Below, in pieces: positions 18,782-63,955 of a stretch of DNA of 64,000 nucleotides. The translations under genes were made by a program, and so were the position numbers. The first letter of the stretch is position 1. The number at the start of each line of letters is the position of its first letter. The notes under the pieces are model-generated. The model was given only the letters and a program-made list of their open reading frames with translations. It did not search any database and had not been told where the DNA came from. This stretch comes from Gaiellaceae bacterium. Its GTDB lineage: Bacteria; Actinomycetota; Thermoleophilia; Gaiellales; Gaiellaceae. Where the stretch lies: assembly GCA_036000665.1 (NCBI GenBank), contig DASYUZ010000112.1, forward strand, positions 19,442 through 83,441. Direction: 5' to 3'.

Positions 18782-18792
18782 CCTGGTTGGCG

Positions 18793-18798
18793 TAAGCT
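18793..18798 (+). promoter_or_regulatory. -10-like TAAGCT, 7 nt before the fbiC ATG (predicted leaderless)
   Basis: TANNNT hexamer at a fixed offset from the start codon, with no SD. Confidence 0.4.
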
Positions 18799-18805
18799 CG
18801 ACCCG

Positions 18806-21157
18806 ATGACGAGCGCGGAGCTGCTGCACGCCTCGGTCGAGGAGCTCTGCGCCGAGGCCCGCTCGCGCCGCCGGTCGCGACTCGTCACGTACTCGCCGAA
18901 GGTGTTCGTCCCGCTCACGAAGCTCTGCCGAGACGTGTGCCACTACTGCACGTTCGCGCGCCCGCCGCGGCGGGGGGAACGCGCGTACATGACGATCGAC
19001 GAGGTGCTCGAGGTTGCGCGCGCCGGCGCAGCGGCGGGTTGCCGAGAAGCGCTCTTCACGCTGGGCGACAAGCCGGAGCTGCGCTACCGGGCGGCGCGGA
19101 CTGAGCTTGCCTCGCTCGGCTGCGCGACGACGGTCGAGTACCTGGAGCAGGCGGCGGGCGCGGTGCTCGAGGAGACCGGCCTCCTGCCGCACCTGAATCC
19201 GGGGGTGCTGTCGCGCGCGGAGCTCGAACGGCTCGCGCGCGTCTCCGCGTCGATGGGGCTGATGCTCGAGACCGCCTCCCTGCGGCTGTCGGCGCGCGGC
19301 GGTCCGCATTTCGGCTCGCCCGACAAGCTTCCCGTGCGTCGGCTCGAGACGATCGCCTGGGCGGGCGAGCTCGGGATTCCGTTTACGACCGGGATCCTGA
19401 TCGGGATCGGCGAATCGCGGCACGAGCGAGTCGAGGCGCTCGTGGCGATCGCCGAGCTCCAGCGGCGCTTCGGCCACGTGCAGGAGGTGATCGTCCAGAA
19501 CTTCCGCGCCAAGCCCGGCACGAAGATGGCGAACGCGCCCGAGCCGACGCTCGAGGAGCATCTCTGGTCGATCGCGGCCGCGCGGCTCGTACTCCCCGAG
19601 GAGGTACACGTGCAGGCGCCCCCGAACCTCGCGGGCGACGAGTTCGCGCGGCTGCTCGACGCGGGGATCGACGACTGGGGCGGCGTCTCGCCGGTGACGA
19701 TCGACCACGTCAATCCGGAGGCGCCCTGGCCCGAGATCGAGCTGCTCCGCGAGGCGACACGGAGCCGCGGATTCGAGCCGGCGGCGCGGCTCGCGGTCTA
19801 CCCGGAGCATGCGCAGCGCGTGCACGAGGATGTGCGCCCGTACGTCCTGCGCGCGTCCGACTCGCTCGGGCTCGCCCGCGAGGACGACTGGTCGCCGGGC
19901 AATGTGCGCGCCGTGCCGTTCGTCCCCGGCGACGCGTTGCCGATCGAGACGCGCGACGAGCTGGGGGAAGAGGAACTCGTCCGTCTCTTCCGCGCGCGCG
20001 GTCGCGAGCTCGAGCGTGTGCTCGCCGCGGCCGACCGGCTCCGGCGCGAGACCGTCGGCGACACGGTCACCTACGTCGTCAACCGGAACATCCAGTACAC
20101 GAACGTCTGCTACTTCCGCTGCGGCTTCTGCGCCTTCTCCAAAGGGAAGCTCGCCGCGAACCTGCGCGGGCCTGCGTACCTCGTCCCCCTCGGGGAGATC
20201 GTGCGACGGTCCGAGGAGGCTTGGGCCCGCGGCGCCACCGAGGTCTGCCTGCAGGGCGGGATCCACCCGGGCTTCACCGGCGACTACTACGGAGACGTCG
20301 TGCGCGCGATCAAGGAAGCCGTGCCCTCGCTGCACGTACACGCGTTCAGCGCACTCGAGCTCTGGCAGGGGGCGGCAACGCTCGGCGTCCTGCTCTTCGA
20401 CTATCTCGCTCGGTTACGCGAGGCGGGGCTCGGCTCGCTCCCCGGCACGGCTGCCGAGATCCTCGACGACGAGGTCCGGCGCGTGATCTGCCCCGACAAG
20501 GTCACGACGGCGCAATGGCTCGAGGTACACGACACCGCGCACCGCGCCGGCCTGCGCTCGAACGCGACGATGATGTTCGGGCACGTCGACGCGCCGCGCC
20601 ACTGGGCGCGCCACCTGCTGCGCGTGCGCGAGCAGCAGCGGCGGAGCGGCGGGTTCACGGAGTTCGTGCCGCTCCCCTTTGTGCACATGGAGGCGCCGAT
20701 GTACCTGAAGGGTCGCGCCCGCCGCGGCCCGACCTGGGGCGAGACGCTGCTCGTCCACGCGGTCGCGCGGCTAGCGCTGCACCCGTACGTAACGAACGTA
20801 CAGGCCTCCTGGGTCAAGCTCGGGCCCGACGGCGTGCACGCGCTCCTGCGCGCCGGCGTGAACGATCTCGGCGGGACGCTGATGAACGAGTCGATCTCGC
20901 GCGCCGCCGGTGCGTCTCACGGGCAGGAGCTCGCACCAGAGCGGCTGGAGGCGCTGATCCGGTCCGCCGGGCGCGTACCGCGGCAGCGCACGACGCTCTA
21001 CGGCGCTGTTTCGGCGGAGCGCCGGCGGGCGTCCTTCGGCGCGCCGCCGCTCGCGGAGCCGCTGAATCCGCCGGTGGCCGATGCGGGGCTGAAGGCGCCG
21101 CCCCGGCTCGTCCGCCCGGGTCTCCTTGCGCAGCCCGCCGCCGCGGCTGCACACTAG
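18806..21157 (+). CDS. fbiC: Bifunctional FO synthase (7,8-didemethyl-8-hydroxy-5-deazariboflavin synthase, fused CofG/CofH)
   Basis: 783-aa ORF with two radical-SAM clusters, CRDVCHYCTF and CYFRCGFCAF, in the two halves. Confidence 0.9.
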   Translation: MTSAELLHASVEELCAEARSRRRSRLVTYSPKVFVPLTKLCRDVCHYCTFARPPRRGERAYMTIDEVLEVARAGAAAGCREALFTLGDKPELRYRAARTELASLGCATTVEYLEQAAGAVLEETGLLPHLNPGVLSRAELERLARVSASMGLMLETASLRLSARGGPHFGSPDKLPVRRLETIAWAGELGIPFTTGILIGIGESRHERVEALVAIAELQRRFGHVQEVIVQNFRAKPGTKMANAPEPTLEEHLWSIAAARLVLPEEVHVQAPPNLAGDEFARLLDAGIDDWGGVSPVTIDHVNPEAPWPEIELLREATRSRGFEPAARLAVYPEHAQRVHEDVRPYVLRASDSLGLAREDDWSPGNVRAVPFVPGDALPIETRDELGEEELVRLFRARGRELERVLAAADRLRRETVGDTVTYVVNRNIQYTNVCYFRCGFCAFSKGKLAANLRGPAYLVPLGEIVRRSEEAWARGATEVCLQGGIHPGFTGDYYGDVVRAIKEAVPSLHVHAFSALELWQGAATLGVLLFDYLARLREAGLGSLPGTAAEILDDEVRRVICPDKVTTAQWLEVHDTAHRAGLRSNATMMFGHVDAPRHWARHLLRVREQQRRSGGFTEFVPLPFVHMEAPMYLKGRARRGPTWGETLLVHAVARLALHPYVTNVQASWVKLGPDGVHALLRAGVNDLGGTLMNESISRAAGASHGQELAPERLEALIRSAGRVPRQRTTLYGAVSAERRRASFGAPPLAEPLNPPVADAGLKAPPRLVRPGLLAQPAAAAAH

Positions 21158-21186: not shown

Positions 21187-21603
21187 ATGGACTGGGTGCT
21201 TCTCGTCGGCAGGCTCGGCTTCGCCTTTCTCTTCGTCTATTCCGGCCTGACCGTTCACCTGCTCCAGCGCGCGCAAGGCATCGAGTACGCACGCATGAAC
21301 CGTGTTCCTGCACCCGAGCTCCTCGTGCCGTTCTCGGGCCTGATGGCGGTGGCAGGCGGCCTCTCGATCGCCCTCGGCATCTGGGCCGATCTCGGCGCGC
21401 TTCTGCTCGTTGCGTTCATGGTGCCCGTTGCGTTCGGCATGCATGCCTTCTGGAGGCACGAGGACCCGATGCAACGCGTCATGGACCGCGTCCACTTCAC
21501 GAAGGACCTCACGCTCGCGGCTGCGGCGCTGTCGTTCTTCGCGCTCTTTCAGCAGTTCGGTGACGAGATCGGGCTGATGCTGACGGGGCCGCTGTTCGAC
21601 TAG
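21187..21603 (+). CDS. DoxX-family membrane protein
   Basis: AAGGAGG SD precedes ATG 21187. 138-aa product, predicted 4-TM, with a DoxX-like N-terminus (LLVGRLGFAFLFVYSG). Confidence 0.75.
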   Translation: MDWVLLVGRLGFAFLFVYSGLTVHLLQRAQGIEYARMNRVPAPELLVPFSGLMAVAGGLSIALGIWADLGALLLVAFMVPVAFGMHAFWRHEDPMQRVMDRVHFTKDLTLAAAALSFFALFQQFGDEIGLMLTGPLFD

Positions 21604-22202
21604 CCGGCGAACGCGCGCTCGAAGGTCGCCGGCGGCTGCGCTCCGAGCACGAGGAGGCGGCTGTCGATCAGGAACGCTGGGATGCCCGAGATCCCGAGCG
21701 ACGCTGCCTGCTGCGTCGAGACGTCCACGCGCTGCGCGTACTCGTCACTTGCGAGCACGCGCTCGACGTCGTCGGCCGGAAGTCCCACCTCATCGGCGAG
21801 CGCGCGCAGCTCGTCCTCGTCGCCGATGTTGCGGGCCTCGTCCCAGTACGCGTCCATGACGCGGTCGTGGAACTCGTCGTGGCGGTCGAGGTCGCGCGCG
21901 AGCTCGGCGAGCCGGAGCGCATTTCGCGAGTTCGGGACGATCTCCGGGTGCGGGTTGTAGCGGAGACCCGCTTCCTCGAACATCGCACCCACGTGTCGAT
22001 CGACCGCGGGGCCGTAGCGCGCCAGCAACTGTGCGCGCGGGATGCCCTCGGGCGGGTACTCCGGGTGCAGGTCGAACGGCAGCCACGTGAGCACGGCGCC
22101 GAACTCGTCACGCATCCACTCGGCCCGGACCTGACCGACGCGGCAGAACGGTCAGATGTAATCCGACCAGATCGCTGCGGTGTGCGGTGCTAGGTCTCCC
22201 AT
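21600..22202 (-). CDS. DsbA/FrnE-family thiol:disulfide oxidoreductase with in-frame TGA (22154-22152) at the first Cys of CxxC; candidate selenoprotein or pseudogene
   Basis: The minus strand from ATG 22202 reads MGDLAPHTAAIWSDYI-TGA-PFCRVGQV..., continuing into the 171-aa ORF 21600..22115. The C-terminus (GISGIPAFLID..LGAQP) is typical of FrnE-like DsbA proteins. Confidence 0.6.
22094..22127 (-). promoter_or_regulatory. Candidate bacterial SECIS-like hairpin downstream of the in-frame UGA
   Basis: The mRNA forms a 10-bp stem with one bulged G and two G:U pairs. The 13-nt apical loop starts with GG, and 34 nt separate the UGA from that loop. Folded by eye only. Confidence 0.3.
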
Positions 22203-23452
22203 CGAAGGAGGTCTTCCACGGTCTCGCGCTTTTTGATCGTTCGCGCCTCGCCGTCGCGGACGAGCACGGCTGCCGGGCGCGGCACGCCGTTGTAGTTGGA
22301 CGCCATGCTGAGCGTGTACGCGCCGGTCGCGGGGACCGCGAGCAGGTCGCCGCGGTGAGGCTCCGGGAGCTCCACCCGGTCGATCAGCACGTCCCCCGAC
22401 TCGCAGTGCCTGCCCGCGACGCGGTAGGCGCGGGTGGGTGCGTCGTCCGCCCGATTCGCGAGCAGGCCGACGTAGCGCGCGCCGTAGAGCTGCGGCCGCG
22501 GATTGTCCGAGACGCCGCCGTCGATCGCGACGTACGTCGTCGTCTCGCTTGCCTCCTTGACGACTCCGACGCGGTAGAGCGTCACGCCGGCCCGGCCGAT
22601 CAGCGAGCGTCCTGGCTCGAGGATCAGCTCGGGGTGTGGGAGGTCGTGGAGCGACCACGCGCGGTCGAGCTCTTCGAGCAGCGCGCCGACCCAATCGTGC
22701 ACGCTCGGGGCGCGCTCTTCGAGCGACTCGCTGATCCCGAGGCCGCCCCCGAGGTCGATCGTCTCGGGTGTCCAGCGCAGGTCGGCTCGGCACTGCGCTG
22801 CGAACGCGGCGAGCCAGTCCACAGTCGTGCGCGCGGCGCCCGTATCGCGGAGCTGAGAGCCGATGTGCACGTGGAGACCACGCAGGTCGAGACCGGCCTC
22901 GCGGGCAGCGGTGACGGCCTCGCGGGCCTGCTCCGGCGGGAGCCCGAACTTCGAGCCGCGGTGGGCGGTTCGGATCGACTCGTGCGTCTCGGCCTCGATC
23001 CCCGGCGTGACGCGGAGCAGGACGCGCTCCACACCGGCTGCGCTCGCGCGCGGGATCTCCTCGAGCGCGTCGAGGACGAGCAGGCGCGTCTCCGCCTCCG
23101 CTGCGGCGCGCAGCTCCTCGTCGCTCTTGTTGTTGCCGTGGACGATGATGCGGTCGGACGGCACGCCCGCCGCTTGCGCGAAGCGGAGCTCCCCGAGCGT
23201 CGAGACGTCGGCGCCGACGCCTTCCTCCGCGAGCATGCGCATCAGCGCGACGTTCGGGAACGCCTTCGTCCCGTAGACGACGAGTGCGTTGGGCGCGGCC
23301 TGCCGGTACGCGCGCGCTTGGCTACGGATCGTCTCCTCGCAGTAGACGACGAGCGGCGTGCCGTGCTCGGCGGCGAGCTCGCTCGCGCGCAGGCCGCCGA
23401 GAACGAGCTCGCCTCCGTGGACGGCGGCGGTGTCGGGGAAGAGCTCCAGCAC
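22190..23452 (-). CDS. lysA: Diaminopimelate decarboxylase
   Basis: 420-aa ORF from GTG 23452. It has PLP fold-III motifs (YGTKAFPN, IDLGGGLGI, GRHCESGD). Confidence 0.92.
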   Translation of the reverse strand: MLELFPDTAAVHGGELVLGGLRASELAAEHGTPLVVYCEETIRSQARAYRQAAPNALVVYGTKAFPNVALMRMLAEEGVGADVSTLGELRFAQAAGVPSDRIIVHGNNKSDEELRAAAEAETRLLVLDALEEIPRASAAGVERVLLRVTPGIEAETHESIRTAHRGSKFGLPPEQAREAVTAAREAGLDLRGLHVHIGSQLRDTGAARTTVDWLAAFAAQCRADLRWTPETIDLGGGLGISESLEERAPSVHDWVGALLEELDRAWSLHDLPHPELILEPGRSLIGRAGVTLYRVGVVKEASETTTYVAIDGGVSDNPRPQLYGARYVGLLANRADDAPTRAYRVAGRHCESGDVLIDRVELPEPHRGDLLAVPATGAYTLSMASNYNGVPRPAAVLVRDGEARTIKKRETVEDLLRWET

Positions 23453-23791: not shown

Positions 23792-24181
23792 TCAGTCGCT
23801 CCACCAGCCCTGGGCCATCTCGGCGTCGCCAGGCCCGCCTGGGGCACCGATCGCGATGACCTCGGCTCCCTCGGGCCCCGCCTCGAAGCTCCGCATCGTG
23901 TCCTTGTGGACGCGCACCGCGTCCCACGGCTTTAGCTCGATGACGTCGTCGCCGACCTTCATCCGGCAGCTGCCGCCCAGGACCACGTACACCTCCTCCT
24001 GCGTCTTGTGCGTGTGTCCCCACGGAATGCGGAAATCCGGCGCGAGCCGCTGGTAGGAGATACCGATCAACTCAGCCTCGAGCGGGACCCGCGCGAAGCG
24101 CGCCTCCAAGTCGGGGGAGAGGCCGAACTTGGGGGCCTGGTCCTCGACCTCTTTCATGTTCACGACGGTGTATCCAGCCAT
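23792..24181 (-). CDS. Cupin-domain protein
   Basis: 129-aa ORF with cupin motif 1 (GHTHKTQEEVYVVLGG). Confidence 0.8.
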   Translation of the reverse strand: MAGYTVVNMKEVEDQAPKFGLSPDLEARFARVPLEAELIGISYQRLAPDFRIPWGHTHKTQEEVYVVLGGSCRMKVGDDVIELKPWDAVRVHKDTMRSFEAGPEGAEVIAIGAPGGPGDAEMAQGWWSD

Positions 24182-24203
24182 GGCGCGGATTCTGCACCCC
24201 TGC

Positions 24204-35480: not shown

Positions 35481-36512
35481 ATGGCGGCCCCCCACCTCAC
35501 CCAGCGCCAGCGCGACATCCTGCGCCAGGTCGTCGAGGAGTACGTCTCGACGGGTGAGCCCGTCGGCTCTAAGACGATCACCGAACGCGCGGTGCTCGGC
35601 GTCTCGCCTTCGACCGTCCGAGCCGAGCTCGCCGAGCTCGAGACGCTCGGGCTGCTCACGCATCCACACACGTCGGCCGGGCGCGTCCCTACCGAGGACG
35701 GCTACCGCTTCTATGCCGCCGCGCTCCTCCACGAGCTCGAGCCGCGTCCGTCCGCCCTTGGGCTGCATCTCGCCGTCCAGAACGAGGTCGAGTCGGCGCT
35801 GCAGGCGACCACCGAGATGCTCTCTGAGATGACGCGGCTGCTCGCGCTCGTCTCCGCGCCCCCGCTCGAGGCCGCGACCGTGCGCCACGTGGAGGTTCTG
35901 CTCTTGCAGCCGACCGTCGCGATGGTCGTCGTGATCACGTCGACCGGCGGGGTCTCGAAGCGGCTGTTCACGACAAGCGAGGCGCTCGACATCGGCCTCG
36001 TCAACTGGGCGGCGGAATACCTGAACGAGAGCGTGGGCGGGCTGCAGCTCGGCACTCACCTCCTCCGGCATCGCTTCGACGACCCATCCCTCCCCCAGCG
36101 AGAGCGCGCGTTCCTCGGGCTACTCCGCCCGGCGTTCACCGAGCTCGAACGCGAACAGCAACAGCTGTACGTGGGGGGTGCGGCCGGTCTGCTCGGGGAC
36201 GTACGCGAGGACGAGCTCGAAGCGTGCCGCCGCGCGCTTCAGGTTCTCGAGCGGCGGGCGGCCGCGCTCGAGCTGATCGGCCAGTCCCTGCACTCGACGC
36301 GACCGTTCGTGCGTGTCGGTGGCGAGCTGCCCGACCCCGCTCTCCACGACGTCGCACTCGTCGGGGCCGCGTACGGGCTGCGGAACCGCGCGCTGGGCTC
36401 GGTCTCGCTCCTGGGGCCGCTCCGCATGGACTACGAGAAGGCGATCCACTCGGTGCGCTCCGCGGCGTTCGAGCTCTCGCGCTTCGTAGAAGGGGTCTAC
36501 GAGGACAACTGA
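35481..36512 (+). CDS. hrcA: Heat-inducible transcription repressor HrcA
   Basis: 343-aa ORF with N-terminal winged helix LTQRQRDILRQVVEEYVSTGEPVGSKTI. Confidence 0.9.
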   Translation: MAAPHLTQRQRDILRQVVEEYVSTGEPVGSKTITERAVLGVSPSTVRAELAELETLGLLTHPHTSAGRVPTEDGYRFYAAALLHELEPRPSALGLHLAVQNEVESALQATTEMLSEMTRLLALVSAPPLEAATVRHVEVLLLQPTVAMVVVITSTGGVSKRLFTTSEALDIGLVNWAAEYLNESVGGLQLGTHLLRHRFDDPSLPQRERAFLGLLRPAFTELEREQQQLYVGGAAGLLGDVREDELEACRRALQVLERRAAALELIGQSLHSTRPFVRVGGELPDPALHDVALVGAAYGLRNRALGSVSLLGPLRMDYEKAIHSVRSAAFELSRFVEGVYEDN

Positions 36513-36533: not shown

Positions 36534-37652
36534 ATGGCCACGACGGAGCGGGACTACTACGAGCTGCTCGGCCTCAGCCGCTCGGCGACCGAGGGAGAGA
36601 TCAAGCGCGCCTTCAGGCAGAAGGCCCGCGAGCTCCATCCCGACGTGTCGGAGGCGCCGGACGCCCAGGAGCGCTTCCGCGAGGTCGTCGAGGCCTACGA
36701 GGTACTCTCGAAGTCCGAGACGCGCGAGCTGTACGACCGCTTCGGCCACGCCGGACTGCGCGGTGGCGGATTCCGGCCCTCGCAGTTCGACTTCGGCAGC
36801 CTGACGGATCTCTTCTCGGCGTTCTTCGGCGATGACCTCTTCGGCGTCGGCACGCGGCCCCGCCGCGCTCGCGGCGGCGACGTGGCCGCGGAGGTCGAGA
36901 TCGAGCTCGCGGAAGCCGCGACCGGCGTGACGCGCGACGTGCCGTACGACGTCGTCGTGCGCTGCAGGCGGTGCGAAGGCCGCGGTGCCGAGCCGGGCAC
37001 CGGGTTGCGCGAGTGCGACTCCTGCGGCGGCTCGGGCCGGCTGCAACAGGTCGGCCGCGGCGTCTTCGGGGAGTTCGTGCGCTCGCAGACGTGCCCGCGC
37101 TGCGGCGGCGCCGGTCGTCTCGTCGAGCAGCCGTGCGGCGACTGTGAGGGCTCCGGCCACGTCGTCGAGCGGCGGACGCTGCCGGTGGAGATCCCGCCCG
37201 GGATCCACGACGGCCAGCGCATCCGGCTCTCCGGCGAGGGGCACGCGGGGAGCCTCGGTGGCCCGGCGGGCGACGTGTACGTACGCGTCCGCGTGAAGCG
37301 AGACCCGCGCTTCGTGCGCGAAGGCGACGACGTGTACTCGACGATTGACCTGACGATGACAGAGGCCGCCCTCGGTTCGGCGCGCACGATCGAGACCCTC
37401 GACGGGGAGGCCGACCTGAGCTTCGAGGCCGGCACGCAGCCCGGTGAGGTCCGCGTCCTGCCGGGGCGCGGGATGCCCGTCCTGCAGGGCTTCGGCCGCG
37501 GTGACCATCGCGTGCTCGTCAACGTCGTTGTCCCGCGCCACCTGACCGCCGAGCAACGCGAGCTGCTCGAGGTGTTCTCGCGCCGGACCGGGGAGGCGAA
37601 CTACCGGCCCGACGAGGGCTTCTTCGAGAAGCTCAAGAGCGCGTTCCGCTGA
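36534..37652 (+). CDS. dnaJ: Molecular chaperone DnaJ
   Basis: J-domain HPD motif and four CxxCxGxG zinc-finger repeats are present. Confidence 0.95.
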   Translation: MATTERDYYELLGLSRSATEGEIKRAFRQKARELHPDVSEAPDAQERFREVVEAYEVLSKSETRELYDRFGHAGLRGGGFRPSQFDFGSLTDLFSAFFGDDLFGVGTRPRRARGGDVAAEVEIELAEAATGVTRDVPYDVVVRCRRCEGRGAEPGTGLRECDSCGGSGRLQQVGRGVFGEFVRSQTCPRCGGAGRLVEQPCGDCEGSGHVVERRTLPVEIPPGIHDGQRIRLSGEGHAGSLGGPAGDVYVRVRVKRDPRFVREGDDVYSTIDLTMTEAALGSARTIETLDGEADLSFEAGTQPGEVRVLPGRGMPVLQGFGRGDHRVLVNVVVPRHLTAEQRELLEVFSRRTGEANYRPDEGFFEKLKSAFR

Positions 37653-38413
37653 GCAGCCTGCGCCGCGTCGCCGTCAGCGTCCCGCTCGAGCGGGCGGAGG
37701 AGGCACGTGCGCTGATGCTTGAGCTCGCACCGGAGGGGTTCGAGGAGCGCGAGCGCGGAGACGAGCTCGAGCTCGCTGCGTACACAGATGCCTACGGCGG
37801 CGCGCGGATAGCCCGCGCGTTCGGCGTCGTGCACGAGGAAGCGCTCACCGCTGACTGGGCCGATCGCTGGCGCACGTTCCATCGTCCGGTGCGCGCCGGG
37901 CCGTTCTGGGTGGGGCCGTCGTGGGAGGGAGCGCCTGCGGACGCGCTCGCGATCGTGATCGATCCCGGGTTGGCGTTCGGCACGGGCGCACACGCGACGA
38001 CGCGGCTCTGCCTCGAGCTGCTCCCGGATCTCCCGCGAGGGAGCCTGCTGGACGCGGGCTGCGGCTCCGGCGTCCTCTCGGTGGCGGCCGCAAAGCTCGG
38101 GTTCGCGCCGGTGCACGCGCTCGACGACGATCACTTCGCGGTCGAGACGACCGTCGCGAACGCGGCCGCGAACGACGTCAGGGTCGAGGCGCGACAGGCG
38201 GACGTCACCCGCGATCTCCTCCCGTCCGTCGACGTCGCGCTTGCGAACATCGCGCTCGCCGCCGTTGAGGCGCTTGCCGACCGCGTCGAAGCACGAGCGC
38301 TGGTCACGGCCGGGTACCTCGTGTCAGATCGGCCGGGCCTCGAAGGGTGGGAGCACCTGGAGCGGCGCGAGCTCGAGGGTTGGGCCGCCGACCGCTGGCG
38401 ACCGACCGGCTGA
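37649..38413 (+). CDS. prmA: Ribosomal protein L11 methyltransferase PrmA (probable CTG start)
   Basis: SAM motif LDAGCGSGVLS is present. The conserved N-terminal strand (LRRVAVSVPLERAEEARALM) lies upstream of the first canonical start, ATG 37715. CTG 37649 overlaps the dnaJ stop (CTGA). Confidence 0.75.
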   Translation: MSSLRRVAVSVPLERAEEARALMLELAPEGFEERERGDELELAAYTDAYGGARIARAFGVVHEEALTADWADRWRTFHRPVRAGPFWVGPSWEGAPADALAIVIDPGLAFGTGAHATTRLCLELLPDLPRGSLLDAGCGSGVLSVAAAKLGFAPVHALDDDHFAVETTVANAAANDVRVEARQADVTRDLLPSVDVALANIALAAVEALADRVEARALVTAGYLVSDRPGLEGWEHLERRELEGWAADRWRPTG

Positions 38414-48085: not shown

Positions 48086-48235
48086 GCTTCACCGCCGCGA
48101 CAACGCGCCGAACAGCGGCGGCGAGGTGGGGCCGGGTCATCCGGCCGTCGCGAAGATCTCCTGCCTCGACGAGCCGCCGGGAGCCCGGCTTGCCGCTCCC
48201 GGTCCGCTGATCGCCGCCGTTACGATCAGCGGCGC

Positions 48236-48832
48236 GTGAACGAGCGAGGCACGCGCCGGTTCAGCCAGGCGATCTCCGAGGGCGACGGAATCTCGGTGCT
48301 CGTCGAGGTCGGCAACCCCGACGGCGCCACAGCCGCCGAGCGCCAGGGCGCCGACGGCGTGGTGGTGCGCGGGAACGTTGCCGGCCTCCGCGACGCCACC
48401 GAGCTGCCGGTGCTCTGGTGCGCGGACGGGCCGGACGCGGCCGATGCGGCCGGCGCAGACGCGTGCCTGCTCGTTGCCGGACGCTACGGCGAGGACTGGG
48501 ACCGCCTCGCCGACGATTACGCGCGCGTGCTCGAGCTCGGCCTCGACTGCGTCGTCGAGGTGCGCGACGAAGAGGAGCTCGAGGACGCGTTCGAGCACGT
48601 CGACCCTGAGATCGTGCTCCTCGCCGGCGAGTCCGACAATCGAGGCGCCGACCCGCTGGACCACGTGCTCGAGCTGCTTCCCGACGTGCCGGCGGGAAAG
48701 CTCGCCGTCGCGGAGGTCGCGGTGACGTCGCGCGACGAGGTGATCGCGCTCGAGCGCGCCGGGATCGACGCCGTGATCGTCGCCGCGCAAGACGTCCGCG
48801 CGCTCGTCGGTGACGAGCCCCCCGAAGTCTGA
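48236..48832 (+). CDS. Hypothetical protein with degenerate indole-3-glycerol-phosphate-synthase (TrpC)-like TIM pattern
   Basis: 198-aa ORF. The segment FSQAI..ISVLVEV resembles the TrpC core, but the KRASPSKG phosphate motif is absent. A 10-bp hairpin (48204-48232) abuts the GTG start. Confidence 0.45.
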   Translation: MNERGTRRFSQAISEGDGISVLVEVGNPDGATAAERQGADGVVVRGNVAGLRDATELPVLWCADGPDAADAAGADACLLVAGRYGEDWDRLADDYARVLELGLDCVVEVRDEEELEDAFEHVDPEIVLLAGESDNRGADPLDHVLELLPDVPAGKLAVAEVAVTSRDEVIALERAGIDAVIVAAQDVRALVGDEPPEV

Positions 48833-50210
48833 GAGTGACGCACGCTGGGGCGGGCCGCGGACGATCCTCGGCCTCGTCCTCGCGGGTGCGGCCGCGCTCC
48901 GGCTCGTCGGCGTCGAGTACGGCCTGCCGTACGGCAGCCTGCTGAACCCGGACGAGCAGAACATCGTCCCGCGCGCGTGGTCGATCGTGCACGGCGGCGG
49001 CCTCGACCCGCACCCGTTCTTCGACTACCCGAGCCTGCTGCTCTACGTGCTCGCGCCCTTCCAGGCGTGGGAGGGCGAGCCGTCGTACCTCGCGGCACGG
49101 CTCGTCGCGGTCACGATCGGCGTGGCGGGGGTCGCCGCCGCCTGGTGGCTCGGCGAGCGCGCGTACGGCGTTGCGGCCGGCGGCGTGGCGGCGGTCGCCG
49201 TCGCGGTGGCGACGGTGCACGTCGCGTATTCGCGCATGGCCGTCACGGACATCTTGCTGACGACGCTCGCGACGGTCGTACTCGCGCTACTCGTCACCGA
49301 CCGCATCGAGCTGGCCGGGTTCCTCGCTGGACTCGCGGCAGCGGCCAAGTACCCGGGCGCAGCGCTGCTCGTGCCCATCGCCGTCGCGGCTTGGGGGCGA
49401 TGGCGCCGGCTCGGGTTCGCGACAGTCCTCCTCGCTGCCGGATTTGCGCTTGGCTCACCGTTCGTCTTCGTGCACCCGGGAGCGTGGTGGGAGGACTACT
49501 CACGCGTCGGCGACCGCGCGCGGGCCGGCTGGCTCGGCTTCGAGCACGACCACGCGTCGCCGATCGCGTTCGGCGACAAGCTCTGGGAGTCGCTCGGGCC
49601 CCTCCTCGTCGTGGCGGCGGCGGGGCTTGGTGTCGCGCTCGCGCGGCGCGGCCGCGCTGACCGCGTCCTGGCCTCGTGGACGGTTTTCTACTTCGTCAAC
49701 TTGCTGCCGATCGGCGCGCACTTCGACCGCTACGTGCTGCCGCTCATCCCCGCGCTCGCCGTACTTGCCGCGCGCTTCGTGCCGCTGGCGGCGGTGCTGC
49801 TCCTGCTGCTCGTCGTGCCCCTGACGTGGACGATCCAACAGGACCGCGACCTCGTCAAGACCGACACACGCGTCGTGGCCGCGCGGAAATACTTCCCGCT
49901 GAGGGGCGCGGGTGGGCTCGCGCTCGACCCGTCGCTTCCGGTTCCCGAACGGGGCCTCCTCTTCGAGCTTGCCCTGCCGGCGCCCTGGGCGGAACCGGAC
50001 CCGCTGCGGGACCTCAACCACCTGCGCGCCCAGGGTGTCCGCATCGTGGTGCTCACGGGGGCGATCGAGGATCGCGTGCTGGAAGCTCGGGACCGGTACC
50101 CGCGCGAGGCGGCGTTCCTTGCCGACGTTCGGAGGACGCACCTCCTCTTCCGGATCGACCCGAACGGCAAGCTGGCAGGGCCCTGGGTCGAGGCGTACGC
50201 CGTGGGATAG
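48810..50210 (+). CDS. Glycosyltransferase family 39 / ArnT-PMT-like membrane protein
   Basis: 466-aa polytopic protein with an N-terminal pattern (LRLVGVEYGLPY..NPDEQ..FFDYPSL) typical of the GT-C/PMT_2 family. Confidence 0.7.
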   Translation: MTSPPKSESDARWGGPRTILGLVLAGAAALRLVGVEYGLPYGSLLNPDEQNIVPRAWSIVHGGGLDPHPFFDYPSLLLYVLAPFQAWEGEPSYLAARLVAVTIGVAGVAAAWWLGERAYGVAAGGVAAVAVAVATVHVAYSRMAVTDILLTTLATVVLALLVTDRIELAGFLAGLAAAAKYPGAALLVPIAVAAWGRWRRLGFATVLLAAGFALGSPFVFVHPGAWWEDYSRVGDRARAGWLGFEHDHASPIAFGDKLWESLGPLLVVAAAGLGVALARRGRADRVLASWTVFYFVNLLPIGAHFDRYVLPLIPALAVLAARFVPLAAVLLLLLVVPLTWTIQQDRDLVKTDTRVVAARKYFPLRGAGGLALDPSLPVPERGLLFELALPAPWAEPDPLRDLNHLRAQGVRIVVLTGAIEDRVLEARDRYPREAAFLADVRRTHLLFRIDPNGKLAGPWVEAYAVG

Positions 50211-60011: not shown

Positions 60012-62591
60012 ATGCCGAAGACGCTGACAGGAGCCGAGCTCCAGCTCGACGACGGGCCCGCACGCGACAGCGAGCTCTTCCTCGTCGACGGGAACAACCT
60101 GGCCTACCGGGCCTTCTTCGCGCTGCCCGAGGAGCTCGCGACGACCGAGGGGTTCCCGACGAACGCGCTACTCGGGTTCACGAACATGCTCTTCAAGCTG
60201 CTCTCCGACTACCGCCCGAAGGGCGTCGCGGTCGCCTGGGACACGCGCCCCGTCGAGCGGCTCGAGCAGCTCGAGACGTACAAGTCCGAGCGCCGACCGA
60301 CGCCGGACCTGCTCGGCGAGCAGTTCCCGTACTTCCGCCCGATCGTGGAGGCGTTCGGGTACCGCAACCTCGAGTTTCCGGGCTGGGAGGCCGACGACGT
60401 GATCGCGACGCTCGCGACGCGCGCCGACGAGGCGGGGATCAAGACGACGATCGTCTCGACCGACCGCGACGCGTTCCAGCTCGTCACGGACCACGTCACG
60501 CTGATGATGACGCCGCGCGGCGTCGCGGACGTGAACGTCTACACGCCGGAGCGCGTCGAGGCGCGGTACGGGATCCGCCCCGATCAGATCCCGGATTTCA
60601 TCGGCCTGAAGGGCGACACGAGCGACAACATCCCCGGCGTCCCCGGCATCGGCGACAAGACTGCGGGACAGCTGATCGCGCAGTACGGGTCGCTCGAGGA
60701 GGTGATCGCGCACGCCGACGAGCTGACGCCCGCGCGCCGGAAGAACATCCTCGAGCACGCCGAGCAGGCGCTGGTCTCGAAGCAGCTGGCGACGATGCGC
60801 CGCGACCTGGAGATCGACTGTGACCCGGCCGAGCTCGTGCTCCAGCCGCCCGACCGCTCGCAGCTGAGGGAGATGTTCCGCCGCTTCGAGTTCCGCGGGC
60901 TGCTCGGCCGCGTCGACCAGCTCGACGAGGCCGTGCCTGCGCTGCTGACGATGCGCCCCGAGGGGACCGCCGTCGCGTGGCGCGAGGGCGAGCTGCCCGA
61001 CGTTTGCGACCGAGCCGCGCTCGCGGTCGCCGACGGCCGCTTCGCGCTCGCGCGCGAGGGCGGCGTCACCGTCGGCACGTTCGATCCCAACGCAGCGCAG
61101 GCGCGCCTCCGCGACGCCGATCTCGTTGCGCATGACTTCAAGTCGCTGCCGCGGCTGACCATGACGCCCGCCGAGGACACGATGCTCGCCGCGTACCTGA
61201 TCGACCCGGGCCGCCCCGCCTACGAGCTCGACGACCTCGCGCAGGAGTATGGGCTCGAAGTGATCCCCGAGCCGCAGACCGAGGAGGAGACCGCGGCGCT
61301 CGTCCGCCACGCCGAAGCGGCGCGGCGGCTCGCGCCGGTGCTGCGCGACCGGCTGCGCGAGCGCGGCAGCGAGCAGCTCTACGACACGATCGAGCTGCCG
61401 CTCGCCGCGGTGCTCGCGTCCATGGAGGACGTCGGGATCAAGATCGACACGTACCGGATGGGCGAGATCACCGCGCGCCTCGCCGACCGCGTCGAGGAGC
61501 TTGAGTCGCGCGCCCACGAGCTCGCGGGCGAGGAGTTCATGCTCGGCTCGACGCAGCAGGTCGCGAGGATTCTGTTCGAGAAGCTCGAGCTCACGCCGGG
61601 CCGCAAGGGCAAGACGGGCTACTCGACCGACACGCGCGTCCTCCGCTCGATCCGCGACGAGCACGAGATCGTGCCCGTGATCGAGGAGTGGCGCGAGTAC
61701 TCGAAGCTCCTGAACACGTACCTGCAGCCGCTGCCGTCGCTGATCTCAGCCGAGGACGGTCGCCTGCACACGCACTTCAACCAGGCGGTCGCCTCGACCG
61801 GCCGTCTCTCGACGTCGAACCCGAACCTGCAGGCGATCCCGATCCGCACCGAGCTCGGGCGCGAGATCCGCTCGGCGTTCATCGCGGAGCCGGGCTGGAA
61901 GCTCGTCTCGGCGGACTACTCGCAGGTCGAGCTGCGCATCCTCGCGCACGTCTCCGGCGAGCCGAAGCTCCGCGAGGCGTTCGCGCGCGGCGAGGACATC
62001 CACACCGCGACCGCTGCGGAGGTACTTGGGAAGGACCCCGCGACGCTGACGAAGGACGAGCGCAACGTCGCGAAGATGGTCAACTTCGGGATCATCTACG
62101 GGATCTCCGCGTTCGGGCTCTCCGAGAACCTGGAGATCCCGCGCGAGCAGGCGCAGGAGTACATCGACGCGTACCTCGCGCGCTTCCCGTACGTGCAGGA
62201 CTTCATCGCGCGCACGATCGAGCAGGCGAAGCGAGACGGCTACGTGACGACGCTCTTCGGCCGGCGGCGTCCGGTGCCGGAGATCCGCGCCTCGAACCGG
62301 CAGACGCGGAGCCTCGGCGAGCGACTCGCGGTGAACTCGGTGATGCAGGGAACTGCCGCGGACATCATCAAGGTCGCGATGGTCGCGATCCACCGGCGGC
62401 TGCGCGACGAGGGCCGTAGCGCGCGGCTCGTCCTCCAGGTCCACGACGAGCTGCTCGTCGAGGCGCCCGAGGCCGAGGTGAGCGCCGTCAAGGACATCCT
62501 GCGCACGGAGATGGCCGCGGCCTTTCCGCTCGACCCGCCGCTCGCCCTCGACGTCGGCGCCGGCGACGACTGGAACGAGGCCAAGTCTTAG
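60012..62591 (+). CDS. polA: DNA polymerase I
   Basis: The 5'-nuclease N-terminus LVDGNNLAYRAFFA is present. Polymerase motifs A (DYSQVELRILAH), B (RNVAKMVNFGIIYG) and C (QVHDELLVE) are present. Confidence 0.95.
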   Translation: MPKTLTGAELQLDDGPARDSELFLVDGNNLAYRAFFALPEELATTEGFPTNALLGFTNMLFKLLSDYRPKGVAVAWDTRPVERLEQLETYKSERRPTPDLLGEQFPYFRPIVEAFGYRNLEFPGWEADDVIATLATRADEAGIKTTIVSTDRDAFQLVTDHVTLMMTPRGVADVNVYTPERVEARYGIRPDQIPDFIGLKGDTSDNIPGVPGIGDKTAGQLIAQYGSLEEVIAHADELTPARRKNILEHAEQALVSKQLATMRRDLEIDCDPAELVLQPPDRSQLREMFRRFEFRGLLGRVDQLDEAVPALLTMRPEGTAVAWREGELPDVCDRAALAVADGRFALAREGGVTVGTFDPNAAQARLRDADLVAHDFKSLPRLTMTPAEDTMLAAYLIDPGRPAYELDDLAQEYGLEVIPEPQTEEETAALVRHAEAARRLAPVLRDRLRERGSEQLYDTIELPLAAVLASMEDVGIKIDTYRMGEITARLADRVEELESRAHELAGEEFMLGSTQQVARILFEKLELTPGRKGKTGYSTDTRVLRSIRDEHEIVPVIEEWREYSKLLNTYLQPLPSLISAEDGRLHTHFNQAVASTGRLSTSNPNLQAIPIRTELGREIRSAFIAEPGWKLVSADYSQVELRILAHVSGEPKLREAFARGEDIHTATAAEVLGKDPATLTKDERNVAKMVNFGIIYGISAFGLSENLEIPREQAQEYIDAYLARFPYVQDFIARTIEQAKRDGYVTTLFGRRRPVPEIRASNRQTRSLGERLAVNSVMQGTAADIIKVAMVAIHRRLRDEGRSARLVLQVHDELLVEAPEAEVSAVKDILRTEMAAAFPLDPPLALDVGAGDDWNEAKS

Positions 62592-63694
62592 CCGCAGGCG
62601 TACGCGCCGCTCGTGATCTGGGCGAGTAGGTCGCGTAACGGGGCGTACGACGGCTTCGGCTGCCAGTTCGCCCACAGGAGGCCCGACTGCCACCCGGCCA
62701 GCCGCCGTTCGTCTGCGAGCTGGAAGTTGAACAACGCTCCGACGAGCGGCTGCTGGCAGTAGGCCAGCGCTAGAGCACGCTGAAGCTGATCCACCTGGTC
62801 GACAACCGGCCCCGGAGCGAGGGCGGGAATGAGTGCGAGCTCGTTCTCGAGGCCGTGATAGAGCGGGCGTCCAAAGGGCGTCCGCGTTTGGAAGCCGTCC
62901 TCGAGGTACCAGATCGTTACGCCTTGCTCGCCCAGCAGGGGCTGGTGCGTGCCGCTGAAGCTCACTTGGATCGCTCGCACGAGCGCGTCGTAATCGCCCT
63001 GTCCCACGTACCCGTTCTCGTGCACCGCCGCGGGGCTCTCCGACGACACGGAGGGATACGGGTTGTGGCCGAACGTGTCCACGAGCGGTCGCGTGCGACC
63101 CGAGGCCCGATACGCCGCGCCGACGCCGCGCACGAACTGGAGCGGGTTGTGACGCGGCGCCGTCGAGCTGATCACGTTGACGTCGGGGCGCAAGGCGTGG
63201 AGCTCGTCCCAGCACCGGCCGAGGAGCGCCGCGTACTGGCGCGGCGCGTCGCGCTGCGGACGCCAGAAGGACGGCGAGTTCACCTCGTTCCAGATCACGA
63301 TGTCGCGCGCTCCCGGGACCGCGGCGACGATCCCGCGCACGTACCTGCAGAACTGGTCGCGTGCCCGGGGTGTGCGGGGCGCGTGCCTGGCCCTCCCGGC
63401 GAACGCGAGCACCACGCGCTGCCGCAGCAGCGACATGCGGCTCAGCCTCGAGATGTAGTGCTGCTCAATGGTGCCGGGATGGAGCATCCCCGGTCGCCAG
63501 GGGAACATGACCTTGACGGTGTCGAACCCCGCGTCGCGCTGGATCCGGACGAGGCCGGGCGTATCCGCGCGCCACTTCACCCAGTCGTCATCGACGCCGA
63601 CGAGCATCGTCCGAGCGGATGCCGCCGAAGCAGGGCAAGCGACGGCAAGCACAAGGATGCCCACGCACATGCTCCGCAGTTGCCAACCGCCCAC
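62588..63694 (-). CDS. Secreted protein, possibly a clan GH-A-like glycoside hydrolase
   Basis: Signal peptide MCVGILVLAVACPASAASA is present. IVIWNEVN and IWYLEDG motifs are reminiscent of the acid/base and nucleophile strands of a TIM-barrel hydrolase. The start is GTG 63694 or ATG 63670. Confidence 0.5.
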   Translation of the reverse strand: MGGWQLRSMCVGILVLAVACPASAASARTMLVGVDDDWVKWRADTPGLVRIQRDAGFDTVKVMFPWRPGMLHPGTIEQHYISRLSRMSLLRQRVVLAFAGRARHAPRTPRARDQFCRYVRGIVAAVPGARDIVIWNEVNSPSFWRPQRDAPRQYAALLGRCWDELHALRPDVNVISSTAPRHNPLQFVRGVGAAYRASGRTRPLVDTFGHNPYPSVSSESPAAVHENGYVGQGDYDALVRAIQVSFSGTHQPLLGEQGVTIWYLEDGFQTRTPFGRPLYHGLENELALIPALAPGPVVDQVDQLQRALALAYCQQPLVGALFNFQLADERRLAGWQSGLLWANWQPKPSYAPLRDLLAQITSGAYACG

Positions 63695-63955
63695 GTTCTT
63701 TCGCAGGATGGGGAGATGGCTTCCGTCTTCAACCCCCGAAGTGGGGGATCCGGACTTGGTCTAGACGGATGGGGAGGTCAGGATCGCGGCTCTGGTCTCC
63801 GGGCCGGAGCCCACGCGTGCAGCCACTGGCAGCCGCCGACGAACTTCAGCGAGCGCCCGCCCACGTGCTGATGGCGAACGAGGCAGGTCTAGGATTCCGC
63901 GCCGTTCCCAAGTAGGATCGCCGCGGTCGTAAGTCCGAGGGAGGAGAGGAGTCGA

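What the first reader, a model, noticed from the sequence alone, without database searches (positions are those of the whole stretch)
21600..22202. In-frame TGA exactly replaces the first Cys of the CxxC motif of a DsbA/FrnE-like gene: candidate UxxC selenoprotein
The minus strand from ATG 22202 reads MGDLAPHTAAIWSDYI-TGA-PFCRVGQVRAEWMRDEFG.... It continues without interruption into the 171-aa ORF 21600..22115. That ORF on its own lacks any redox motif. FrnE-like DsbA proteins begin ..IWSD..CP(W/F)C.., so the TGA (22154-22152) sits at the nucleophilic Cys position. That position is the classic site of Sec/Cys exchange in thiol oxidoreductases. The mRNA downstream can form a 10-bp stem with one bulge and a 13-nt apical loop starting GG (22127-22094). 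The loop begins 34 nt after the UGA, a geometry compatible with bacterial SECIS elements. Standard gene callers would output only the truncated, CxxC-less ORF. The competing explanation is a single-base nonsense mutation (TGC/TGT to TGA) or a sequencing error.
Basis: partly seen in the sequence, partly recalled or inferred. Interest (0 to 1): 0.8.

Follow-up and report, generated by a model that had tools for sequence, protein, structure and literature searches.

The report
Selenocysteine FrnE/DsbA-like gene in Gaiellaceae
The in-frame TGA is almost certainly a real selenocysteine codon in a cytoplasmic FrnE/DsbA-type disulfide oxidoreductase, conserved in about 160 related soil actinobacterial sequences and routinely mis-annotated as a truncated gene, but the selenoprotein family itself has been known since 2005.

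Summary
In detail: ATG 22202 to TAG 21600 on the minus strand is a full-length DSBA-domain gene, interrupted only by TGA 22154-22152, which aligns with the first Cys of CP(F/W)C. It is not a mutation or an assembly error. The same TGA is present in 79 of 80 species-representative Gaiellales genomes, in 79 parsed metagenome loci and in five contigs of the window's own sublineage. Only seven orthologs carry TGY (Cys), and each is nested among Sec forms. Protein-level conservation runs through the TGA, while TGA terminates 21 of 37 other genes in the window. The conserved hairpin lies at 22143-22116 (loop AGGUCCG), 11 nt after the U of UGA. It is the only segment of the gene more stable than a synonymous-codon null, shows covariation, and is weaker or lost in most Cys forms. 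Sixteen related contigs also carry a deiodinase-like gene with FGSYT-TGA-PPF, so the clade appears to decode Sec. No selA, selB, selD or tRNA-Sec could be examined for this genome. DsbA-like UxxC selenoproteins are already published, so this is a new member of a known kind.

The parts
21600..22202 (-). Complete FrnE/DsbA-like selenoprotein gene: 200 codons including Sec17, with stop TAG at 21602-21600
   Evidence: PF01323, E = 4.6e-33, residues 11-198. Closest PDB sequence is D. radiodurans FrnE 5CNW, E = 1.7e-20.
22200..22202 (-). ATG start codon, lying inside the last 13 nt of lysA
   Evidence: ATG or GTG sits at the same position in sublineage contigs L167-L171. Family-wide conservation begins at codon -13 to -16.
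22152..22154 (-). TGA, the selenocysteine codon (residue 17)
   Evidence: TGA in 79 of 80 genome loci, 79 parsed metagenome loci and 5 sublineage contigs. It aligns with the first Cys of CPFC/CPWC.
22143..22154 (-). U-P-F-C redox motif (TGA CCG TTC TGC); Cys20 is the only Cys in the protein
   Evidence: P+1 100%, F+2 96%, C+3 100% conserved.
22116..22143 (-). SECIS-type hairpin: 4-bp lower stem, bulged G (22139), 6-bp upper stem and 7-nt apical loop
   Evidence: -13.0 to -14.3 kcal/mol; meets all four bSECIS criteria.
22126..22132 (-). Apical loop AGGUCCG, starting 19 nt after the UGA codon
   Evidence: Across the family, loop position 1 is A in 148 of 149 sequences and position 2 is G in 134 of 149.
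21678..21680 (-). Pro175 of the G-I-P cis-proline loop typical of thioredoxin-fold oxidoreductases
   Evidence: Invariant column P175 in alignment A1. It aligns with GVP of drFrnE.
22190..23452 (-). Upstream lysA (diaminopimelate decarboxylase), whose stop overlaps the start of the selenoprotein gene; the likely operon partner
   Evidence: PF02784, PF00278. The same adjacency appears in L162, L164 and L167-L169.
21187..21603 (+). Convergent DoxX-family membrane protein gene, overlapping the 3' end by 4 nt; a conserved neighbour in the window's sublineage
   Evidence: (PF07681).

Best explanation
The gene at 22202-21600 (minus strand) encodes a 200-residue cytoplasmic thiol-disulfide oxidoreductase of the FrnE subfamily of the DsbA family. 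The N-terminal nucleophile of its CxxC motif is selenocysteine, giving U17-P-F-C20. During translation, the UGA at 22154-22152 is recoded as Sec. Recoding would be directed by a SECIS hairpin in the coding sequence just downstream (22143-22116; 10 bp with one bulged G; loop AGGUCCG starting 19 nt after the codon). By inference, a SelB-type elongation factor carrying Sec-tRNA(Sec) binds this hairpin. Sec17 sits at the N-terminal cap of helix alpha-1 of the thioredoxin fold. It would attack substrate disulfides or form a selenenylsulfide with Cys20. Sec is the ancestral state of this ortholog in Gaiellales, and rare lineages have replaced it with Cys. Shown here: gene integrity, conservation of the TGA, selection on both sides of it, the fold, and the conserved hairpin. 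Inferred: actual Sec insertion, SelB binding and the redox function.
For: 1) TGA conservation. The identical TGA occurs in 79 of 80 GTDB species-representative Gaiellales/Thermoleophilia genomes, in 79 parsed metagenome loci even though the query was a Cys form, and in five contigs of the window's own sublineage at 82-90% protein identity. Sec forms diverge down to 48% identity.
2) Translation through the TGA. Residues W-5, S-4 and D-3 are 100% conserved and Y-2 and I-1 are 97-99%. Ser-4 is kept although all three of its codon positions vary, which indicates switching between TCN and AGY codons. No in-frame stop occurs in the 10 upstream codons of 154 distinct sequences. Conservation begins abruptly at codon -13.
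3) No global reassignment. TGA ends 21 of 37 Pfam-supported genes in the window.
4) Cys orthologs. Seven TGY forms exist, each with a Sec form as nearest neighbour. Parsimony places Sec at the root with seven switches to Cys. The Cys locus L162 shares the MurJ-holA-ComEC-ComEA-LeuRS-lysA-DSBA gene order with the window.
5) Hairpin. Only the 36 nt starting 9 nt after the UGA fold better than a synonymous-codon null (mean z = -1.90; 61% of sequences at p <= 0.05, against 0-12% at every other well-sampled position). It is the most stable 42-nt segment of the gene (-20.4 against -8.3 to -15.6 kcal/mol). Columns 19 and 39 covary as C-G 56, G-C 15 and A-U 2 (none of 5000 permutations reached the observed pairing, p < 0.0002). 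Cys forms average -15.2 against -19.5 kcal/mol (Mann-Whitney p = 0.003). The window's hairpin meets all four published bSECIS criteria (PMC13188914).
6) Sec decoding in the clade. Sixteen of the same contigs carry a T4_deiodinase-family gene with FGSYT-TGA-PPF (PF00837, E = 3.3e-32). Its hairpin loop also begins with AG after a C-C stack, 16 nt after the codon.
7) Fold. The AF2 model of the 61%-identical Cys ortholog has pLDDT 94, with the Sec-equivalent residue at the N-cap of alpha-1. Its best PDB match is drFrnE (TM 0.87).
8) Precedent. DsbA-like UxxC selenoproteins (COG2761, PF01323) are published (PMC1088965, PMC1794560, PMC5029168, PMC13188914).
Against: No tRNA-Sec, selA, selB or selD was found. 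The machinery is therefore untested for this genome.
The window's own hairpin is weak for the family: -14.3 kcal/mol, in the weakest ~4% of Sec forms, z = -0.73 against its codon null, and not distinguishable from dinucleotide shuffles.
The bSECIS criteria discriminate poorly at 70% GC: 62% of real sites pass strictly, against 5-38% of control positions; with suboptimal folds allowed, 77% pass against 45%.
RNAalifold finds no single consensus structure, because the bulge position shifts between subgroups.
No Rfam SECIS family matches.
A second hairpin conserved in most relatives is missing from the window.
There is no experimental evidence of selenium incorporation.
Confidence: 0.9

Rival explanations
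1. The TGA is a nonsense mutation, a pseudogene lesion or an assembly error in an ordinary CPFC FrnE gene, and only the truncated 171-aa ORF, or nothing, is made.
For: A single base separates TGA from TGC or TGT. Gene callers output only the truncated ORF. The window's hairpin is not significant on its own.
Against: The same TGA is found in about 160 independently assembled sequences from different samples and species, down to 48% protein identity. The 13-16 codons upstream and the 12 codons between the TGA and the called start are under strong protein-level constraint. The truncated product would lack strand beta-1 and the active site.
Confidence: 0.01
2. The UGA is recoded in a SECIS/SelB-dependent way, but with cysteine rather than selenocysteine. 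This could be through a tRNA-Sec-like tRNA charged with Cys, or through Cys misincorporation when selenium is scarce. Such systems are recalled from the literature on tRNA-Sec-like Cys tRNAs, not checked here.
For: Nothing here distinguishes Sec from Cys at the codon. Cys works in seven natural orthologs. No selA or selD was seen.
Against: The co-occurring deiodinase-like gene has TGA at its classical Sec position. Long-term maintenance of a costly UGA plus hairpin, when a TGY codon is one mutation away, argues that the inserted residue differs from Cys. The family is a recognised selenoprotein family (PMC13188914).
Confidence: 0.04
3. SECIS-independent leaky read-through: near-cognate Trp or Cys tRNA decodes UGA-C, a weak termination context, producing a low level of full-length protein. 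The hairpin would then be only a by-product of GC-rich coding sequence.
For: All sequences have UGA followed by C. Hairpins that satisfy the bSECIS criteria are common in these GC-rich genes.
Against: The excess stability over the synonymous-codon null is specific to this position. There is covariation. The hairpin decays in four of seven Cys forms. Trp at the nucleophile position would inactivate the enzyme. The position is Cys in every non-TGA ortholog.
Confidence: 0.03
4. The SECIS is the first reader's hairpin at 22127-22094, not the hairpin at 22143-22116.
For: It can form in the window (-14.4 kcal/mol). Its central GGCCG/CGGCGC pairing is possible in most relatives (72% of cells paired).
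Against: It is no better than shuffled columns (127 of 500) and has no covariation support. As folded by RNAfold, its upper stem is 1 bp. It competes for the 3' arm of the conserved hairpin. Most relatives form a different local hairpin (columns 48-62) in that region.
Confidence: 0.05

Closest known systems
DsbA-like selenoprotein, 'form 1' (UxxC; COG2761, PF01323), from Zhang, Fomenko and Gladyshev 2005 (PMC1088965), Zhang et al. 2006 (PMC1794560), the 2016 census (PMC5029168) and the 2026 review (PMC13188914)
   Same: The same Pfam domain, the same UxxC motif with Sec replacing the first Cys, a SECIS hairpin directly downstream in the coding sequence, and widespread Cys homologs.
   Different: Published examples come from marine metagenomes and mostly anaerobic Deltaproteobacteria and Clostridia (41 organisms in 2016). 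Here the gene sits at a core, syntenic chromosomal locus in Gaiellaceae/Gaiellales (soil Actinomycetota), where Sec appears ancestral and nearly fixed. I could not compare sequences directly with the published representatives, so subfamily identity is inferred from the shared COG/Pfam assignment and motif.
Deinococcus radiodurans FrnE (DR_0659; PDB 5CNW, 5CO3)
   Same: It is the closest solved structure: sequence E = 1.7e-20, and Foldseek TM 0.87 with 36% identity for the ortholog model. Both have the IWSD..CP(W/F)C active-site context and the cis-Pro loop. FrnE is a cytoplasmic disulfide reductase/isomerase (PMC8945050).
   Different: drFrnE has Cys22, not Sec. It also carries a C-terminal CxxxxC tail (residues 239-244) implicated in regenerating the active site. 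The window protein ends at residue 200 and has a single Cys, as do S. roseofulvus and D. maricopensis FrnE, which also lack the tail.
Streptomyces coelicolor SCO1869 putative DsbA oxidoreductase (PDB 3GL5)
   Same: An actinobacterial FrnE-type protein with the same fold (TM 0.88, 31% identity; sequence E = 3.8e-18).
   Different: It is a Cys form and has not been characterised functionally.
Bacterial SECIS consensus (bSECIS model, and the E. coli fdhF SECIS)
   Same: A hairpin inside the coding sequence, starting about 11 nt after the U of UGA. [quoted passage not shown]
   Different: There is no sequence similarity to any Rfam SECIS family. The clade-typical loop is A-G-N5 closed by a C-C/G-G stack, and the position of the bulge varies between subgroups. 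Most relatives, but not the window, add a second short hairpin 3' of it.

Membership tests
DsbA-like UxxC selenoprotein family (COG2761, PF01323) | Full-length DSBA-like thioredoxin domain | tested here: met
   PF01323, E = 4.6e-33, profile positions 4-190 of 191
DsbA-like UxxC selenoprotein family (COG2761, PF01323) | In-frame TGA aligned with the first Cys of CxxC in Cys-containing homologs (a Sec/Cys pair) | tested here: met
   The TGA aligns with C of IWSDYICPFCR in P0020, P0022, P0023, P0026, P0027 and P0030 (VWIDPICPFCY in P0089), and with CPWC of drFrnE
DsbA-like UxxC selenoprotein family (COG2761, PF01323) | TGA-containing orthologs in other organisms | tested here: met
   79 of 80 genome loci, 79 parsed metagenome loci and 5 sublineage contigs
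DsbA-like UxxC selenoprotein family (COG2761, PF01323) | SECIS-like stem-loop immediately downstream of the TGA | tested here: met
   Hairpin at 22143-22116. Family-wide excess stability, covariation and loss in most Cys forms. Caveat: the window's own copy is weak, and the criteria are not very specific at 70% GC.
DsbA-like UxxC selenoprotein family (COG2761, PF01323) | Sec-decoding machinery (selA, selB, selC/tRNA-Sec, selD) in the same genome | not testable with these tools
Indirect support: a second TGA-containing selenoprotein family on 16 related contigs.
DsbA-like UxxC selenoprotein family (COG2761, PF01323) | Selenium actually incorporated at the UGA | not testable with these tools
   Requires 75Se labelling or mass spectrometry
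FrnE subfamily of the DsbA family (cd03024) | CP(W/F)C active-site motif at the N-terminus of helix alpha-1 | tested here: met
   The motif is U-P-F-C. In the AF2 model of ortholog P0022 the equivalent Cys14 precedes helix 15-31. Motif definition from PMC8945050.
FrnE subfamily of the DsbA family (cd03024) | Thioredoxin fold with an inserted helical domain, closest to FrnE structures | tested here: met
   Foldseek top hits are 5CO3 and 5CNW (TM 0.87) and 3GL5 (TM 0.88). This was tested on the 61%-identical ortholog, not the window protein itself.
FrnE subfamily of the DsbA family (cd03024) | Cytoplasmic location (no signal peptide or membrane anchor) | tested here: met
   Only about 9 residues precede strand beta-1, leaving no room for a signal peptide. 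No dedicated signal-peptide predictor was run.
FrnE subfamily of the DsbA family (cd03024) | C-terminal CxxxxC motif (present in many members but not all) | tested here: not met
   The protein ends at residue 200 and its only Cys is C20. The alignment to drFrnE stops at residue 212 of 260. The motif is also absent from S. roseofulvus and D. maricopensis FrnE (PMC8945050), so its absence does not exclude membership.
FrnE subfamily of the DsbA family (cd03024) | Conserved cis-Pro loop facing the active site | tested here: met
   P175 is invariant in A1 and aligns with GVP of drFrnE. The cis conformation itself was not checked.
Bacterial SECIS (bSECIS consensus model, PMC13188914) | Apical loop of 3-9 nt and upper stem of 4-16 bp | tested here: met
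   7-nt loop and 6-bp upper stem
Bacterial SECIS (bSECIS consensus model, PMC13188914) | [quoted passage not shown] | tested here: met
   The window's loop is AGGUCCG. Across the family, position 2 is G in 134 of 149 sequences.
Bacterial SECIS (bSECIS consensus model, PMC13188914) | 16-37 nt between the UGA and the apical loop; MFE <= -7.5 kcal/mol | tested here: met
   19 nt and -13.0 kcal/mol
Classical periplasmic DsbA oxidase (E. coli type) | Signal peptide, CPHC motif and a DsbB partner | tested here: not met
   No N-terminal extension, the motif is UPFC, and no DsbB-family gene was found among the annotated genes of the window. E. coli-type DsbA structures are only distant fold matches (TM 0.45-0.6).

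The most novel reading that the evidence does not exclude
Sec-FrnE would be an ancestral, vertically inherited and almost fixed feature of a whole order of abundant soil Actinomycetota (Gaiellales). It would be decoded through a clade-specific SECIS rule (a C-C-closed loop beginning A-G, 16-19 nt after the UGA codon, often reinforced by a second 3' hairpin) that it shares with a co-resident deiodinase-like selenoprotein. These organisms would then have a constitutive selenium requirement for cytoplasmic thiol-disulfide homeostasis, and thousands of public gene models for the clade would be truncated.
Probability: 0.5. Interest if true: 0.45.

Novelty: new member of a known kind. Interest (0 to 1): 0.35.

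Why it matters
Practically, this gene is mis-annotated almost everywhere. Of the 120 closest database proteins, 113 are N-terminally truncated models that lack the active site, and NCBI names one of them simply 'DsbA family protein'. Any functional or redox-proteome inference for Gaiellales drawn from those models is wrong.

Biologically, it extends a known selenoprotein family to a widespread soil actinobacterial order not previously linked to selenocysteine in the searchable literature. It shows Sec as the ancestral state, with repeated Sec-to-Cys replacement, and provides about 150 natural SECIS variants with covariation for studying SelB recognition in high-GC bacteria. It does not reveal a new mechanism.

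Tried and rejected
1) RNAalifold on the 80-sequence alignment returned no consensus structure. The cause is that the one-nucleotide bulge shifts position between subgroups, so I used explicit pair counts, per-sequence folds and a codon-resampling null instead.
2) Rfam found no SECIS or tRNA-Sec match, either at gathering thresholds over the whole window or at E <= 10 over 22050-22210.
3) ARAGORN on the window and all held loci found no tRNA-Sec.
The only SelB hits were to the GTPase domains of LepA-like genes.
5) Pfam annotation of 40 window ORFs (37 with a family match) showed no sel genes.
6) A metagenome scan with Cys-type proteins as the query, meant to collect Cys controls, returned 79 TGA forms out of 80 loci. 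The Cys controls had to be fetched one by one.
8) The look-up of the contig encoding the 100%-identical LepA (P0124) returned no record, so the MAG accession was not obtained.
9) The bSECIS criteria were tested as a discriminator and found weak in this GC-rich background, so I do not rely on them alone.
10) A window-wide scan for further in-frame TGAs with coding signal on both sides gave only the HrcA stop followed in frame by DnaJ, which is a false positive.
11) I had earlier counted 28 TGA-terminated ORFs. The correct counts are 26 of 48 candidate ORFs and 21 of 37 Pfam-supported genes.
Full report
**Observation.** On the minus strand, ATG 22202 opens a 200-codon frame that ends at TAG 21602-21600. 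It contains one in-frame TGA, at 22154-22152 (codon 17), in the context IWSDYI-TGA-PFCR. A mechanical ORF list gives only the 171-aa ORF 21600..22115. With Cys substituted for the stop, the protein matches Pfam DSBA (PF01323) over almost the whole profile, positions 4-190 of 191, E = 4.6e-33. Its only cysteine is C20, so the called ORF has no redox motif.

**Error or pseudogene?** No. Of the 120 closest database proteins, 113 are truncated to 163-184 aa and cover only 80-89% of the query. The seven full-length ones read IWSDYICPFCR or a close variant. I fetched the DNA of 80 species-representative genomes, all Gaiellaceae, Gaiellales or Thermoleophilia MAGs. Seventy-nine carry TGA at exactly this codon and one carries TGT. 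A metagenome scan seeded with the Cys forms still returned 79 TGA forms among 80 loci. Five contigs from the window's own sublineage (four distinct sequences, 82-90% protein identity, same lysA-DSBA-DoxX order) also carry the TGA. Sec-form proteins diverge down to 48% identity.

**Translation through the TGA.** Conservation is at the protein level on both sides of the codon. Residues W-5, S-4 and D-3 are 100% conserved and Y-2 and I-1 are 97-99%. The serine at -4 is kept although all three of its codon positions vary, which indicates switching between TCN and AGY codons. None of 154 distinct sequences has an in-frame stop in the ten preceding codons. Conservation starts abruptly at codon -13, the modal start position. 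TGA is not reassigned in this organism, because it terminates 21 of 37 Pfam-supported genes in the window.

**Orthology and direction of change.** The window's gene order is MurJ, holA, ComEC, ComEA, LeuRS, lysA, DSBA. The Cys-form locus L162 has the same order, so the Sec and Cys genes are orthologs at a housekeeping locus. Each of the seven Cys forms has a Sec form as its nearest neighbour. Parsimony on a neighbour-joining tree places Sec at the root, with seven independent changes to Cys.

**The SECIS.** In the window it is no better than shuffled sequence (z = +0.10). Across the family it is no better than column shuffles (127 of 500) and shows no covariation. It also fails the loop and stem limits of the published bSECIS model.

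A different hairpin recurs in every family member, at alignment columns 14-43, which is window 22143-22116. In the window it has a lower stem CCGC/GUGG, a bulged G at 22139, an upper stem UCGGUC/GGCCGA and the loop AGGUCCG (22132-22126). Its energy is -13.0 to -14.3 kcal/mol. It starts 11 nt after the U of UGA, and its loop starts 19 nt after the codon.

The family-level evidence for this hairpin has four parts:
- With each protein sequence held fixed and synonymous codons resampled, only this segment is more stable than expected. Its mean z is -1.90, and 61% of sequences reach p <= 0.05, against 0-12% at every other well-sampled position along the gene.
- It is the most stable 42-nt segment of the gene, at -20.4 kcal/mol against -8.3 to -15.6 elsewhere.
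- Columns 19 and 39 pair as C-G (56 sequences), G-C (15) and A-U (2). This links the first base of a Val/Leu/Ile codon to the third base of a Glu/Asp codon. None of 5000 permutations reached the observed pairing (p < 0.0002). Whole stems are also swapped between subgroups (UCGGCC/GGCCGA, GUGGCG/CGCCAC, CGCGGC/GCCGCG).
- Cys forms fold less well, at a mean of -15.2 against -19.5 kcal/mol (Mann-Whitney p = 0.003). Four of the seven have lost the hairpin. The three that retain it include the two closest to Sec forms (L161 and L164).

**Caveats on the hairpin.** The window's copy is among the weakest ~4% of Sec forms. One C-to-U change turns a G-C pair into G-U, and its close relatives reach -17.0 kcal/mol. 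RNAalifold gives no single consensus, because the bulge moves between subgroups. In these 70%-GC genes the bSECIS criteria are also met at 5-38% of control positions under the strict test, and at 45% when suboptimal folds are allowed. Meeting the criteria is therefore necessary but weak evidence.

**Sec machinery.** The window contains only one tRNA gene (tRNA-Leu) and no sel genes. About 1.7 Mb of related loci contain no tRNA-Sec and no selA, selB or selD. The rest of the genome could not be reached.

There is indirect evidence. A scan for other in-frame TGAs with coding signal on both sides found a second conserved case on 16 of the same Gaiellaceae contigs, about 9.4 kb from the DsbA gene. 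Its context is FGSYT-TGA-PPF, in a T4_deiodinase-family protein (PF00837, E = 3.3e-32; NCBIfam deiodinase_rel). Deiodinase-like proteins are a recognised bacterial selenoprotein family (PMC1088965, PMC13188914). Its downstream hairpin also has a loop that begins A-G after a C-C stack, 16 nt after the codon, and all 16 copies pass the bSECIS criteria. Two unrelated genes with a conserved TGA at the catalytic position argue that the clade decodes Sec. This second gene was not seen in the window itself.

**The protein.** The closest solved structure by sequence is D. radiodurans FrnE (5CNW, E = 1.7e-20), and the TGA aligns with the first Cys of its CPWC. An AlphaFold model of the 61%-identical natural Cys ortholog P0022 is confident (pLDDT 94, pTM 0.89). 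It places the Sec-equivalent residue at the N-terminal cap of helix alpha-1. Its best fold matches are drFrnE (TM 0.87) and S. coelicolor SCO1869 (TM 0.88).

[quoted passage not shown] The window protein lacks the optional C-terminal CxxxxC tail. Its start codon overlaps the end of lysA, which suggests co-transcription and perhaps translational coupling. This last point is inference.

**Organism.** The window's LepA is 100% identical to a protein from an NCBI 'MAG TPA: Gaiellaceae bacterium' on an 83.5-kb contig. The window's exact 171-aa ORF is not in the protein collection.

**What is already known.** DsbA-like UxxC selenoproteins (COG2761, PF01323) were reported from the Sargasso Sea in 2005 (PMC1088965). 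They were reported in Anaeromyxobacter, Desulfovibrio and Desulfotomaculum in 2006 (PMC1794560). A 2016 census counted them in 41 organisms (PMC5029168). A 2026 review lists them as 'DsbA-like protein form 1' (PMC13188914). No paper in the searchable library links Gaiellales or Thermoleophilia with selenocysteine.

**Verdict.** This is a genuine selenoprotein gene and a new member of a known kind. Its value lies in correcting annotation, in extending the family's taxonomic range, and in providing a large natural set of SECIS variants. Interest 0.35.

Noticed in passing
L018:19103-19810 (TGA at 19421); also L001, L011, L017, L023, L024, L029, L037, L038, L040, L043, L044, L049, L052, L055, L075: A second conserved in-frame TGA gene lies about 9.4 kb from the DsbA-like gene on 16 Gaiellaceae contigs. 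It is a T4_deiodinase-family protein (PF00837, E = 3.3e-32) with the motif FGSYT-U-PPF, and its downstream hairpin has the loop AGUUG. It is not present in the window.
   Followed up: partly
Alignment A2 columns 48-62, which corresponds to window 22110-22096: Most family members have a second short hairpin, GCGCCG-GUU-CGGCGC, 3' of the SECIS. It is 87% paired, and a G-C to A-U double change occurs in 8 sequences (0 of 500 shuffles reach this). The window's sublineage lacks it (GUGACGAGUUCGGCGCC). It may be an accessory element or a by-product of the RRFGA codons.
   Followed up: partly
window 22190-22202 and 21600-21603: The selenoprotein's start codon lies inside the last 13 nt of lysA, which suggests possible translational coupling. 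Its stop overlaps the stop of a convergent DoxX-family gene by 4 nt. The lysA-DSBA-DoxX arrangement is conserved in the sublineage contigs L167-L171.
   Followed up: partly
Database hits P0001-P0120; HLM35824.1: 113 of the 120 closest public protein models are N-terminally truncated and start at whatever ATG, GTG or TTG follows the TGA. JGI and NCBI name them 'DsbA family' proteins, not selenoproteins.
   Followed up: yes
window 36510-36512: The TGA stop of hrcA is followed directly and in the same frame by the dnaJ ORF (36513 onward), which mimics an in-frame TGA with coding signal on both sides. These are two separate Pfam-supported genes, so this is a false positive of the selenoprotein scan.
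   Followed up: yes
window 23792-24202 (minus strand): A 136-aa ORF with good coding statistics (GC3 0.89) lies between lysA and leuS and has no Pfam match. An unannotated ORF occupies the same position in L167 (132 aa).
   Followed up: no
window 18782-21157 (plus strand): A fused radical-SAM CofG/CofH-type gene (FO synthase, fbiC-like), indicating F420 biosynthesis. This fits an actinobacterial origin.
   Followed up: no
window 62588-63760 (-), 37601-38323 (-) and 48137-49024 (-): Three ORFs with a coding-like GC3 profile have no Pfam match at E <= 1e-5. Some may be shadow ORFs of genes on the opposite strand.
   Followed up: no
One locus among L001-L080 (not identified): In one relative, the frame after the TGA stays open for more than 1100 nt instead of about 550. 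This suggests a lost stop codon or a fusion with the downstream gene.
   Followed up: no
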